From contig JAUYKG010000004.1 in the NCBI GenBank assembly GCA_030700105.1, forward strand, positions 1-44,774: a stretch of DNA of 44,774 nucleotides. Reading direction: 5' to 3'. Shown piece by piece: positions 1 through 43,394 of this stretch. The notes under the pieces were generated by a model, which was not told where the DNA came from, made no database searches, and worked only from the letters and a program-made list of their open reading frames with translations. Numbering within the stretch: the first letter of the stretch is position 1; each line of letters starts with the position of its first letter. This stretch comes from Candidatus Veblenbacteria bacterium. GTDB taxonomy: Bacteria > Patescibacteriota > Patescibacteriia > Veblenbacterales > UBA10138. A program made the translations under genes and the position numbers.

Positions 1-90
1 GCTCTACACTGAGCCTCCGACAGGGCGGCAAATACTAAGCTCATGGAACACTCTTAACCCAGCCCCCAAACAGTCTTGGTTCCTCAAGGG

Positions 91-119
91 TTGACAAATT
101 CAGAGTTTTGATGTATGTT
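91..119 (+). promoter_or_regulatory. sigma70-type promoter upstream of the structured RNA / ORF 371
   Basis: TTGACA (91-96), 17-nt spacer, TATGTT (114-119). Confidence 0.65.
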
Positions 120-155
120 TATATGATTTGAACATTAACAACTTGAAGAGCAGTG

Positions 156-320
156 CTTCGTTCCCACCACCCTATGGAGGGGAGAAGCGGTTGGCAGCAG
201 CTTACGGGTTGGTTCCCGCCAGAGGGGCGGACACTAACCTTAGGCTACGAGCCAATCGTCCGGTGTACTGGCCTTCGGGCAAAGGTACACCACTTCTCCT
301 TCAGGGTAGTGGGAATGAAG
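156..320 (+). ncRNA. candidate structured non-coding RNA (three-way junction), family unknown
   Basis: Closing stem 156-187/293-320, long hairpin 188-258, short hairpin 262-291 with a cUUCGg tetraloop; many G-U pairs only work on the + strand. Confidence 0.6.
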
Positions 321-370
321 GAATTAAATAAATTAAAAACAAAATATAAACAATCTTTGAGGAGTAAAAA

Positions 371-772
371 ATGAAAAAATCATTCAAGAAAGCGGGCGTT
401 TTTTCGCTTGATCTACTGGTCTTCTTGAGCCCTCTAGCTATAGCAGTTGTTGTAGGTTCTATACTTGCGGGTGGATATAACAAGTTCAATAGTACAACCC
501 AAATGTACATAGCCTATGACGCTGCAATTTTAGCTTTTATTCTGTGGGCGGTCGTTACCTACTTAATGACAAAACTCAGGCGGAGTTGGAGATACGCGAC
601 CGGCATGCTAGCAATCAGTTTTATATTAACTGCCTGCCTCTCACTCATTGAGAGATACGAGACTGGTACGGCAATAATATTTGGTATGCTGTTAATATTC
701 GCCATAGCCTCCTTAATAACTGGCTGGAGCGAGATTAAAAATTGGACCTACCACCGAATAAAAAAACAGTAA
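371..772 (+). CDS. hypothetical 4-TM membrane protein
   Basis: 133 aa ORF, GAGGAG RBS upstream, hydrophobic segments, AT-rich, terminator follows. Confidence 0.75.
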   Translation: MKKSFKKAGVFSLDLLVFLSPLAIAVVVGSILAGGYNKFNSTTQMYIAYDAAILAFILWAVVTYLMTKLRRSWRYATGMLAISFILTACLSLIERYETGTAIIFGMLLIFAIASLITGWSEIKNWTYHRIKKQ

Positions 773-780
773 AAAACTCT

Positions 781-818
781 AAAGGATTTCCAACTACCTT
801 GGCGGAAATCCTTTTTTT
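781..818 (+). terminator. intrinsic terminator (probably bidirectional)
   Basis: AAAGGATTTCC...GGAAATCCTTT stem followed by a T-run. Confidence 0.8.
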
Positions 819-853: not shown

Positions 854-881
854 TGTACTAACGTGTTAACACGTTAGTACA
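854..881. repeat. perfect 28-bp palindrome
   Basis: TGTACTAACGTGTT|AACACGTTAGTACA. Confidence 0.9.
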
Positions 882-42161: not shown

Positions 42162-43217
42162 CTACCCAAGAACCACCAGTTCCTCCCATGGTAATCCAGC
42201 TTTGCCGAAGTGACCGTAGGTGGCCGTGGCGCGGTAAAGGGGGCGCCGTAAACCCAAGCGCTCAATGATAGCCTGAGGGCGAAAATCAAATCGCTGGCGT
42301 ACGTAATCGCTCAAGCTTTCCTGCTTCTCGTTAACCGCTTCAACCATTAGTGGTTCGGCTCGGCCGATGGCATAAGCCACCGAGACTAGACATTCCTTGC
42401 CTAAACCAGCCGCTACCAGATTCTTGGCCACGAACCGACACATGTAGGCACCAGACCTATCCACTTTAGTTGGGTCCTTCCCTGAAAAACAACCCCCACC
42501 ATGTGGAATCAATCCGCCGTAAGTATCTACCATTATTTTGCGGCCGGTAAGTCCGGCGTCGGCCTCAAAACCGCCGGACGTAAATGTACCAGTCGGGTTT
42601 ACCAGCACTTCTATACCCCCCATATCTTGAACTAACGGGGCGATGAGTTTAGCTGTGAGCACCGACCGTAATTCATCCAAGCCAACCTCAGGTGTATGCT
42701 GGGCGCTCACTAAAACCGTGAGCGTGCGGCCATTCTCAGCTGTTACCTGAGTTTTACCGTCAGGCTTAAGCCAGATGATCTCCCCCACGGTGCGCAACTG
42801 CTCCAGCCGACGCGCTAAAGCATGAGCCAATACCACGCCCCGGGGCAAAAATTCCGGCGTTTCGCTCGTGGCATAGCCGTACATAATACCCTGGTCGCCC
42901 GCGCCACCCGTATCCACACCACGCGCTATCTCCGGAGCTTGCTCACTTACGTGCGCCTTAACTTCTATGACATTGCTATAGCCAACCTCAGTATGAATTT
43001 GGCGGGCAATAGCTTCGTAATCAACTTTAGCGCGAGTAGTCACCTCGCCGCCTATAACCACCAAACCATGACTACCCATTACCTCCACACCCACGCGTGA
43101 GGTGGGGTCCTGCCGCAAACATTCGTCCAATACCGCGTCTGAAATTTGGTCGCAGACCTTGTCCGGATGTCCTGAGGTAACGCTTTCCACGGTATATATT
43201 TTTGGCTCAAAACGCAT
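42162..43217 (-). CDS. metK: S-adenosylmethionine synthetase
   Basis: ESVTSGHPDK.CDQISD, GAGDQG, GLTGRK, GGG.FSGKDPTKVDRS; start ATG 43217. Confidence 0.97.
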   Translation of the reverse strand: MRFEPKIYTVESVTSGHPDKVCDQISDAVLDECLRQDPTSRVGVEVMGSHGLVVIGGEVTTRAKVDYEAIARQIHTEVGYSNVIEVKAHVSEQAPEIARGVDTGGAGDQGIMYGYATSETPEFLPRGVVLAHALARRLEQLRTVGEIIWLKPDGKTQVTAENGRTLTVLVSAQHTPEVGLDELRSVLTAKLIAPLVQDMGGIEVLVNPTGTFTSGGFEADAGLTGRKIMVDTYGGLIPHGGGCFSGKDPTKVDRSGAYMCRFVAKNLVAAGLGKECLVSVAYAIGRAEPLMVEAVNEKQESLSDYVRQRFDFRPQAIIERLGLRRPLYRATATYGHFGKAGLPWEELVVLG

Positions 43218-43225
43218 GTTATATA

Positions 43226-43250
43226 TAAAAAATCTTCCCTGGCGGGAAGA
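43226..43250 (-). terminator. riboswitch-controlled terminator
   Basis: TCTTCCC-GCCA-GGGAAGA-TTTTTT; its 5' arm can pair alternatively with GGGGAAGATAAT (antiterminator). Confidence 0.8.
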
Positions 43251-43261
43251 ATAATACATTA

Positions 43262-43373
43262 ATTATCTTCCCCGGGTAAACCTGGGGCTAGAGGGAGCAC
43301 CTTATCCGCCCAAGGCGAACAGGTTGCTGAAGCGCTCAAACGGGCTAGGTCCCTCGCGCCTACTCTTGATAAT
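43262..43373 (-). ncRNA. SAM-I (S-box) riboswitch
   Basis: ATTATCAAGAG...GAGGGAC..GCCC...GCAACC...GGTGC...GATAAT upstream of metK. Confidence 0.9.
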
Positions 43374-43394
43374 ATCCGATTGTTAAGCTTTTTC

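What the first reader, a model, noticed from the sequence alone, without database searches (positions are those of the whole stretch)
156..320. Highly structured 165-nt RNA with its own promoter, matching no family I recognise
Seen: nearly every base can pair. P1 is 156-173/303-320 plus 179-187/293-301. P2 is 188-195/251-258, 199-204/241-246, 206-213/233-240 and 216-220/226-230. P3 is 262-268/285-291, capped by GCC-UUCG-GGC. Many G-U wobbles and the cUUCGg loop point to selection on the + strand RNA. It is GC-rich within AT-rich flanks, starts about 30 nt after a TTGACA promoter, and precedes a 4-TM ORF and a terminator. It lacks the SRP GGAA loop, the hammerhead core and the large two-sided 6S bubble.
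Basis: partly seen in the sequence, partly recalled or inferred. Interest (0 to 1): 0.7.

Follow-up and report, generated by a model that had tools for sequence, protein, structure and literature searches.

The report
New Y-shaped RNA in tiny bacteria
The folded 165-base stretch is one copy of a Y-shaped RNA, matching no catalogued family, that nearly every sampled genome of one family of ultra-small groundwater bacteria keeps through compensating mutations; it is likely a stable RNA in its own right, with swappable membrane-protein genes riding behind it, and its expression and binding partner are untested.

Summary
The fold is real (z = -8.7) and has no Rfam match. A covariance model finds it in 20 of 21 genomes of the host family, 1-5 copies each, in 3 of 7 genomes of one other family, and in none of 144 other class or 150 phylum genomes sampled. 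On an unfitted alignment the top 12 of 8,968 covarying column pairs are all predicted base pairs. Helix lengths are fixed while P2 sequence drifts. Most copies sit behind a shared promoter and an rRNA-type boxA and are followed by unrelated orphan genes, mostly hydrophobic (30 clusters among 38). Four copies have no gene and a terminator-like hairpin instead, and two genomes carry tandem copies. Identity between alleles and paralogues repeatedly stops at the RNA's 3' end, where the cargo changes. It fails the tests for 6S, SRP RNA, Y RNA, Csr RNA and riboswitch. Best reading: a stable, processed ncRNA with hitch-hiking cargo (0.45); main rival: a cis-acting leader (0.33). No RNA run was listed. 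The scan's index holds no look-alike sequence, only similar-kind notes in other CPR lineages.

The parts
44..86 (.). Inverted pair of boxes (TGGAAC at 44-49, GTTCCTCA at 79-86) at fixed spacing, abutting the -35; likely a regulator site, protein unknown
   Evidence: Exact pattern has 18 matches (16 distinct sites) in 7 of 21 family genomes, 12 sites at copies of this RNA; reversed-pattern control 2 matches
91..119 (+). Sigma-70-type promoter, -35 TTGACA (91-96), -10 TATGTT (114-119); start site inferred near 126
   Evidence: same promoter type upstream of many homologues
130..140 (+). boxA-like motif (8 of 11 matches to the gamma-proteobacterial consensus; degenerate in this copy, perfect in many homologues)
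   Evidence: Loose motif within 40 nt upstream in 26 of 46 copies against 0 (reverse strand), 0 (downstream) and 1.8 expected (shuffles); same motif in 9 of 9 rRNA leaders of these genomes; consensus from PMC5725501 passages
156..320 (+). The structured RNA: three-way junction of P1, P2, P3
156..187 (+). P1 5' strand, with the purine run GGAGGGGAG; most sequence-conserved helix
   Evidence: A166 97%, C171 92%, across 36 sequences; covariation at 160/316, 162/314, 163/313, 164/312, 165/311, 167/309
187..259 (+). P2 arm: variable sequence, fixed length; conserved UGGU/ACUR helix at 210-213/233-236; 214-232 is an extension seen in few copies
262..291 (+). P3 arm: 8-bp stem, conserved A-rich bulge (281-283), 3-bp cap, UUCG loop (274-277)
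   Evidence: A282 92%, A283 97%; UUCG in 24 of 36; covariation 272/279, 265/288, 266/287
293..320 (+). P1 3' strand; C302, G304, U310 invariant
   Evidence: 36 of 36 sequences
321..370 (+). A/U-rich spacer with Shine-Dalgarno GAGGAG (359-364); point where related copies diverge
   Evidence: 16% GC; identity to the C44 copy falls from 98% to about 56% at position 326
371..772 (+). Cargo gene: orphan 133-aa protein with four hydrophobic segments
   Evidence: No Pfam family; only its own cluster in the protein search; Atlas best feature score 0.89, a lead only; 42% identical to the C44 cargo
782..818 (+). Intrinsic-terminator-like hairpin and U-run
   Evidence: similar GGATT..AATCC hairpins follow the C44, G009 and G018 copies

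Best explanation
This is a conserved Y-shaped RNA of one lineage of ultra-small CPR bacteria that likely works as a stable RNA in its own right: it is predicted to be transcribed rRNA-style by a boxA/Nus-loaded polymerase, trimmed back to its closing stem, and recognised by shape by a still unknown protein, while unrelated orphan genes ride on the same transcript and are likely swapped by recombination anchored in the RNA gene. Shown: the fold and its covariation, the fixed arm lengths, the multi-copy spread, the upstream promoter and boxA motif, gene-less and tandem copies, and cargo breakpoints at the 3' end of P1. Inferred: transcription; NusB-S10 binding to boxA helping the two P1 strands pair, as for the rRNA leader-trailer helix; 5' trimming by RNase J and 3' cutting in the A/U-rich spacer by RNase Y then PNPase; protein binding through the conserved P1 sequence, the G-U helix about 20 bp up P2 and the A-bulge of P3 (predicted A-minor docking).
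For: Covariation: 23 of 45 pairs change on both sides in a plain MAFFT alignment, 0 of 500 shuffles reach it; top 12 of 8,968 MI-APC pairs are predicted pairs in an unfitted alignment of 36 sequences; + strand more stable in 39 of 41 copies. Shape: P1 19-26 bp, P2 arm mostly 52-63 nt, P3 arm mostly 28-35 nt in 45 folds. Independence from cargo: four copies (L042, L032, L057, L049) are followed directly by a hairpin and no ORF; both copies found in G013 are of this kind; the gene-less orthologues L049/L057 are 86% identical with compensatory swaps; tandem copies without a gene between them in G170 (22 nt apart) and G106. No switch: the cargo SD pairs with the RNA core in 0 of 33 folds. boxA matches the genomes' own rRNA leaders; NusB and RNase III in 5 of 5 genomes tested; Rho RNA-binding domain in 0 of 21, so a folding-chaperone role fits better than anti-Rho (PMC8632103 passages; PMC10250234 abstract). 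Cargo: 38 ORFs in 30 clusters, none of the first downstream ORFs scanned has a Pfam family. Identity ends at P1's 3' end in C24/C44, L023/L042, L051/L052, L035/L036, L060/L039.
Against: Most copies (38 of the 47 entries, as used) run straight into a gene with no terminator between, as a leader would. Cargo is enriched for hydrophobic proteins (21 of 30 clusters against 160 of 580 roughly called small ORFs of G000; the control includes spurious ORFs), which hints at a link between RNA and cargo. boxA also heads about a dozen other G000 promoters of ordinary or orphan genes that lack this RNA, so it does not mark a stable RNA by itself, and it is degenerate in this copy. A second structured module in the same operons also heads small ORFs, suggesting that each cargo gene gets a 5' structure. 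No partner protein was identified; RNase J, RNase Y and PNPase were seen only by short recalled motifs. Gene-less copies could be recent cargo losses.
Confidence: 0.45

Rival explanations
1. It is a cis-acting 5' leader that controls the cargo mRNA: the closed P1 stem protects the 5' end from RNase J, or, as in the lambda N leader, boxA-bound Nus factors hold down translation until RNase III cuts P1.
For: 38 of 47 entries have a gene 24-170 nt downstream, median offset 45 nt in the 33 folded. Order promoter-boxA-structured spacer-SD is that of the lambda N and suhB leaders, where boxA represses translation (PMC5725501 passages). RNase III present. P1 3' strand resembles the 16S anti-SD of these genomes and would be freed by cutting. 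Other stems precede later genes in the same operons.
Against: Gene-less copies keep the fold with compensatory changes; tandem copies; a plain hairpin would suffice for protection, yet arm lengths, the P2 G-U helix and the P3 bulge are conserved; no conserved pairing with the SD.
Confidence: 0.33
2. It is a highly diverged 6S-like RNA that binds RNA polymerase.
For: Length 138-195 nt, closing stem plus a long internal stem plus a 3'-side hairpin resemble B. subtilis 6S-1, which has a 3' central-bubble hairpin (PMC8876501 passages); no Rfam 6S in 0 of 21 family genomes, so the role is vacant.
Against: No central bubble: the longest unpaired junction strand is at most 9 nt in 45 folds and 0-7 nt in three-way forms, and 13 of 45 carry a fourth helix there. 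No 6S match at E up to 10 for the window or 20 homologues. The strand that would template a product RNA is an unbroken purine run, giving an all-pyrimidine product (inference).
Confidence: 0.08
3. It is a new self-cleaving ribozyme or other processing element that splits these operons.
For: Variable three- or four-way junction with conserved helices and bulges; copies punctuate operons of small variable genes; a hammerhead-like core lies just upstream of the G155 copy (seen by eye).
Against: Few conserved unpaired bases (C171, A282, A283), junction strands vary in length and sequence, no pseudoknot among top covarying pairs, no ribozyme family hit.
Confidence: 0.06
4. It is mainly a DNA element (REP/MITE/attC-like or a recombination anchor) and the RNA fold is secondary.
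For: More than ten different chromosomal sites; 98-99% identical copies at different sites of one genome with diverged flanks (L023/L042); cargo switches at its 3' edge; an empty rpmF-gyrA site in G000.
Against: Strand bias, G-U pairs (194 G-U against 40 A-C cells; the structure was chosen allowing G-U) and UUCG loops point to RNA; one site (murB-murC) is occupied in about 18 of 21 genomes, i.e. vertically kept; no integrase, transposase or reverse transcriptase is linked (one rve fragment beside one copy; RT in 12 of 21 genomes, none in G000).
Confidence: 0.08

Closest known systems
Pre-rRNA leader: boxA plus leader-trailer helix (PMC10250234 abstract; PMC8632103 passages)
   Same: Promoter, then boxA, then the 5' strand of a long helix that closes over a folded RNA; same boxA variants as the genomes' own 16S and 23S leaders
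   Different: The enclosed RNA is about 100 nt and not rRNA; multi-copy at unrelated sites; usually followed by a protein gene
Lambda N leader (nutL boxA, structured spacer, N Shine-Dalgarno) and suhB boxA leader (PMC5725501 passages; RNase III relief of N repression is recalled, not read)
   Same: boxA, structured RNA, then an SD and gene on one transcript
   Different: No N-like protein or boxB identified, no Rho in the family, gene-less copies exist, three-way conserved fold
6S RNA (Rfam RF00013)
   Same: Size, closing stem, long internal stem, 3'-side hairpin as in B. subtilis 6S-1; several paralogues possible
   Different: No central bubble, no model match, up to five copies, variable genes downstream
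Orphan structured RNA motifs from comparative genomics (raiA, OLE, ROOL, GOLLD; recalled, all in Rfam)
   Same: Covariation-supported fold of unknown function
   Different: No match to any of 4,227 Rfam families; restricted to two CPR families; heads hypervariable cargo
Integron Pc-attI platform (recalled)
   Same: A fixed promoter platform followed by exchangeable orphan genes
   Different: No integrase or attC-type sites identified; the platform is a structured RNA; breakpoints fit homologous recombination

Membership tests
6S RNA | Match to RF00013 | tested here: not met
   No hit at E up to 10 for the window or 20 homologues; 0 of 21 family genomes have any 6S hit
6S RNA | Rod with large unpaired central bubble | tested here: not met
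   Junction strands at most 9 nt in 45 folds; definition from PMC8876501 passages
6S RNA | Binds sigma-70 holoenzyme and templates product RNA | not testable with these tools
   Needs in vitro assay
SRP RNA | Helix 8 with GNRA loop and Ffh-binding symmetric loop; RF00169 match | tested here: not met
   No hit in G000 at E up to 1 or on homologues; P3 loop is UUCG in 24 of 36
SRP RNA | Ffh/FtsY encoded | tested here: not met
   PF00448 absent from G000, 96% complete; other genomes not searched
Known self-cleaving ribozymes | Family catalytic core / Rfam match | tested here: not met
   conserved unpaired bases are few
Known self-cleaving ribozymes | Self-cleavage | not testable with these tools
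   Needs in vitro transcript
Riboswitch or attenuator | Consistent downstream gene function | tested here: not met
   30 unrelated clusters among 38 ORFs; four gene-less copies
Riboswitch or attenuator | Expression platform: SD or terminator in alternative pairing with the motif | tested here: not met
   SD pairs with the core in 0 of 33 ensemble folds; MFE equals centroid; equilibrium folding only
Bacterial Y RNA | Ro60/TROVE gene present, tRNA-like module | tested here: not met
   PF05731 in 0 of 5 genomes; ARAGORN and Rfam give no tRNA-like call at 156-320
Csr/Rsm sponge RNA | CsrA encoded and GGA motifs in loops | tested here: not met
   PF02599 in 0 of 4 host-family genomes, 1 of 1 in the second family; the GGA run is paired in P1
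boxA-headed, rRNA-style transcript | boxA motif upstream of a closing helix; NusB encoded | tested here: met
   26 of 46 within 40 nt against 0, 0 and 1.8 in controls (motif was loosened to fit the nine rRNA leaders); NusB 5 of 5
boxA-headed, rRNA-style transcript | NusB-S10 binding and RNase III processing of the helix | not testable with these tools
   RNase III gene present; cleavage untested
Integron cassette system or retroelement | Linked integrase or reverse transcriptase | tested here: not met
   Flanking genes within about 1.5 kb are housekeeping (138 of 203 called ORFs scanned); RT absent from G000 and 8 other family genomes

The most novel reading that the evidence does not exclude
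An integrase-free cassette platform built on an RNA: a portable operator-promoter-boxA-RNA module that both anchors recombination of new membrane and lipoprotein genes behind it and, as RNA, delivers their transcripts to the membrane or to a dedicated protein, in cells that lack SRP, 6S RNA and Rho.
Probability: 0.15. Interest if true: 0.9.

Novelty: new variant of a known kind. Interest (0 to 1): 0.62.

Why it matters
CPR bacteria have stripped genomes and, in this family, no detectable 6S RNA or Rho, and in G000 no SRP; an RNA kept in nearly every genome, often in several copies, is likely to do something they cannot lose. It gives a concrete, synthesisable handle on gene control in an uncultured lineage, makes testable what boxA does in a bacterium without Rho, and marks the spots where these genomes exchange orphan surface genes. 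The limit is its narrow range (two families) and the lack of expression data.

Tried and rejected
No RNA holder was listed for 60-800, so expression was not examined and read laying was not used. Pattern scan of viral contigs gave 3 chance matches. The metagenome scan with a strict pattern returned one locus, L250, not analysed. A second-generation model from the wider alignment could not be built, so the range outside the host family rests on R1, trained on 10 sequences from 6 genomes; class and phylum searches used stricter filters, and R1 missed two weaker murB-site copies (21-24 bits) found later by targeted search, so more distant homologues may exist. Alignment A3 used held one antisense hit and two partial hits and was fitted to the model; searches are the cleaner tests. 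The 98% identity of the C24 and C44 copies was rejected as evidence of selection, because upstream non-coding DNA is equally identical. An ORF from the internal GGAGG was rejected: a start codon follows in only 17 of 47. LexA, DnaA and ParB were considered for the inverted boxes from memory; none was established (listing only). Literature: nine full-text searches returned no description of this RNA; listings only except where passages are cited. In the bioRxiv survey 10.64898/2026.10.21.760802 only term passages were read; its supplements are closed and could hold this family among unannotated clusters. Candidate sets outside Rfam were not compared.

Full report
Observation. The + strand of 156-320 folds into a three-way junction at -96.2 kcal/mol with z = -8.71 and identical MFE and centroid; the - strand is weaker. 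Rfam gives nothing at the gathering threshold, four chance-level hits at E up to 10 around the element, and one chance hit over 20 homologues.

Host. The window is contig C24 of G000, an 811-kb, 96% complete genome of the small-genome CPR type; a scan note calls it Candidatus Veblenbacteria (not checked here). G000 shows no 6S RNA, SRP RNA or Ffh/FtsY. No 6S was found in 21 of 21 family genomes and no Rho RNA-binding domain in 21 of 21; NusB, RNase III and RNase P RNA are present in 5 of 5 tested.

Family. BLAST and motif searches gave 11 copies. A covariance model from 10 of them (R1) finds 4 copies in G000 and 44 sense-strand places in 20 of 21 family genomes (two places are pieces of one site; 14 of the 15 genomes outside the training set are positive). 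The negative genome's contig ends just after the promoter at the usual site. Two more, weaker copies were found by targeted search. Outside the family: 3 of 7 genomes of one other family, none of the other 144 class genomes or 150 phylum genomes searched, and 0 of 83 control loci.

Structure is under selection as RNA. In the plain MAFFT alignment 23 of 45 pairs change on both sides, beyond all 500 shuffles and all slid registers. In an unfitted alignment of 36 sequences the 12 strongest of 8,968 MI-APC column pairs are predicted pairs of P1, P3 and distal P2; this test does not model the tree. The + strand is more stable in 39 of 41 copies and z is -4.0 to -9.4 in the 20 tested. Of 45 folds, 32 are three-way and 13 four-way; P1 has 19-26 pairs, the P2 arm mostly 52-63 nt, the P3 arm mostly 28-35 nt, and no junction strand exceeds 9 nt. 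Sequence conservation sits in P1 (C302, G304, U310 invariant; A166 97%), the P3 bulge (A282 92%, A283 97%) and a UGGU/ACUR helix near the P2 tip. In this copy 214-232 is an extension beyond that helix.

Context. Upstream, most copies share a promoter with an inverted pair of boxes at fixed spacing and a boxA motif like that in the genomes' own 16S and 23S leaders: 26 of 46 within 40 nt against 0, 0 and 1.8 in controls, seven more behind an inserted hairpin. boxA also heads about a dozen G000 promoters without the RNA. Copies lie at more than ten sites: murB-murC (about 18 of 21 genomes, one inferred from shared flanks), lemA-prfA, rpmF-gyrA, topA-relA, mgsA-uppS, groEL and others; rpmF-gyrA is empty in G000. 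Downstream lie an A/U-rich spacer, an SD and an orphan ORF: 38 ORFs form 30 clusters, 21 of 30 hydrophobic against about 28% in a rough control. The SD never pairs with the RNA core (0 of 33), though it pairs with something at over 0.5 in 14 of 33, including this copy. Four copies have a hairpin and no gene after them; two genomes of the second family carry tandem copies.

Cargo exchange. C24 and C44 are 98-99% identical up to position 325, about 58% in the cargo, 76% in the uppS end, and converge at the end of C44; mgsA is on C44 only. They are most likely two alleles of one locus, or a local duplication, so G000 has three sites rather than four. The same break at the RNA's 3' end appears in four other pairs; in G009 two copies at different sites are 98% identical across the RNA with 62% upstream and 50% downstream. 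This fits recombination or gene conversion anchored in the RNA gene (inference); no linked integrase or reverse transcriptase was found.

Mechanism. The gene-less and tandem copies, the compensatory changes between gene-less orthologues and the fixed geometry favour an RNA that works by itself (0.45). With no Rho, boxA is more likely to serve co-transcriptional folding, as described for the rRNA complex and the leader-trailer helix (PMC8632103 passages; PMC10250234 abstract). Trimming to P1 by RNase J, RNase Y and PNPase is inferred; these genes were seen only by recalled motifs. The partner is unknown: not Ffh, Ro60 or CsrA. The main rival (0.33) is a cis leader that stabilises or, like the lambda N and suhB leaders, represses the cargo through boxA (PMC5725501 passages); both may hold. 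6S-like (0.08; PMC8876501 passages), ribozyme (0.06) and DNA-element (0.08) readings are weaker.

Verdict. A real, uncatalogued RNA family of narrow range, with an unusual role as the fixed head of exchangeable orphan genes. No description was found in nine literature searches, and closed preprint supplements may bear on that. Interest 0.62.

Noticed in passing
G000:C14:19179-19320 (-) = L021:2050-2191; also L046, L032, L050, L056, L055, L059, L038, L045, L054, L257, L258, L259, L035: A second uncatalogued structured RNA, 140-250 nt, right after the promoter at the murB-murC site in 14 loci: 5' hairpin whose GUGCUU loop can pair with an internal AAGCAC (one compensatory variant in L035), a ~22-bp closing stem ending in a U-run, and a GCAGUYGAA core. 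No Rfam hit in the loci scanned. It occurs with or without the Y-shaped RNA; in G013 the two form a gene-less operon.
   Followed up: partly
G000, about a dozen promoters (e.g. C5:9016+, C7:5884+, C20:20096-, C35:3576+, C42:1262-): boxA motifs directly after sigma-70 promoters of mostly unrecognised genes in a genome with no Rho; some have a small hairpin before the SD.
   Followed up: partly
L064:1700-1765 (-), G155: Hammerhead-like core (CUGAUGAG..CGAAA with three stems) immediately upstream of the RNA copy; seen by eye, not reported by the Rfam scan.
   Followed up: no
L044, L047, L035, L023, L033, L019 (spacers before cargo start codons): A recurring small G/C-rich motif just before the SD of first or second cargo genes that could form an H-type pseudoknot (by eye).
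   Followed up: no
window 854-881: Perfect 28-bp palindrome with related copies on contigs C19, C22 and C35; REP-like.
   Followed up: no
window 1-32 and G000:C44:7810-7983: The contig starts inside a ~170-bp dispersed repeat with 74-77% identical copies on at least seven contigs.
   Followed up: no
window 43260-43375 (-): SAM-I riboswitch (46.1 bits) directly upstream of the SAM synthetase gene 42162-43259; ordinary but uncommon to see in so reduced a genome.
   Followed up: no
G000 whole genome: ARAGORN finds 42 tRNAs and no tmRNA; may be an assembly gap. 16S and 23S genes are on different contigs with separate promoters.
   Followed up: no
L052:499-1496 (-), G012: Cargo here is a P-loop protein followed by a Csx3-like ORF (PF09620, E 1.5e-6); L048 and L039 cargo resemble HicB-type small proteins by eye only.
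   Followed up: no
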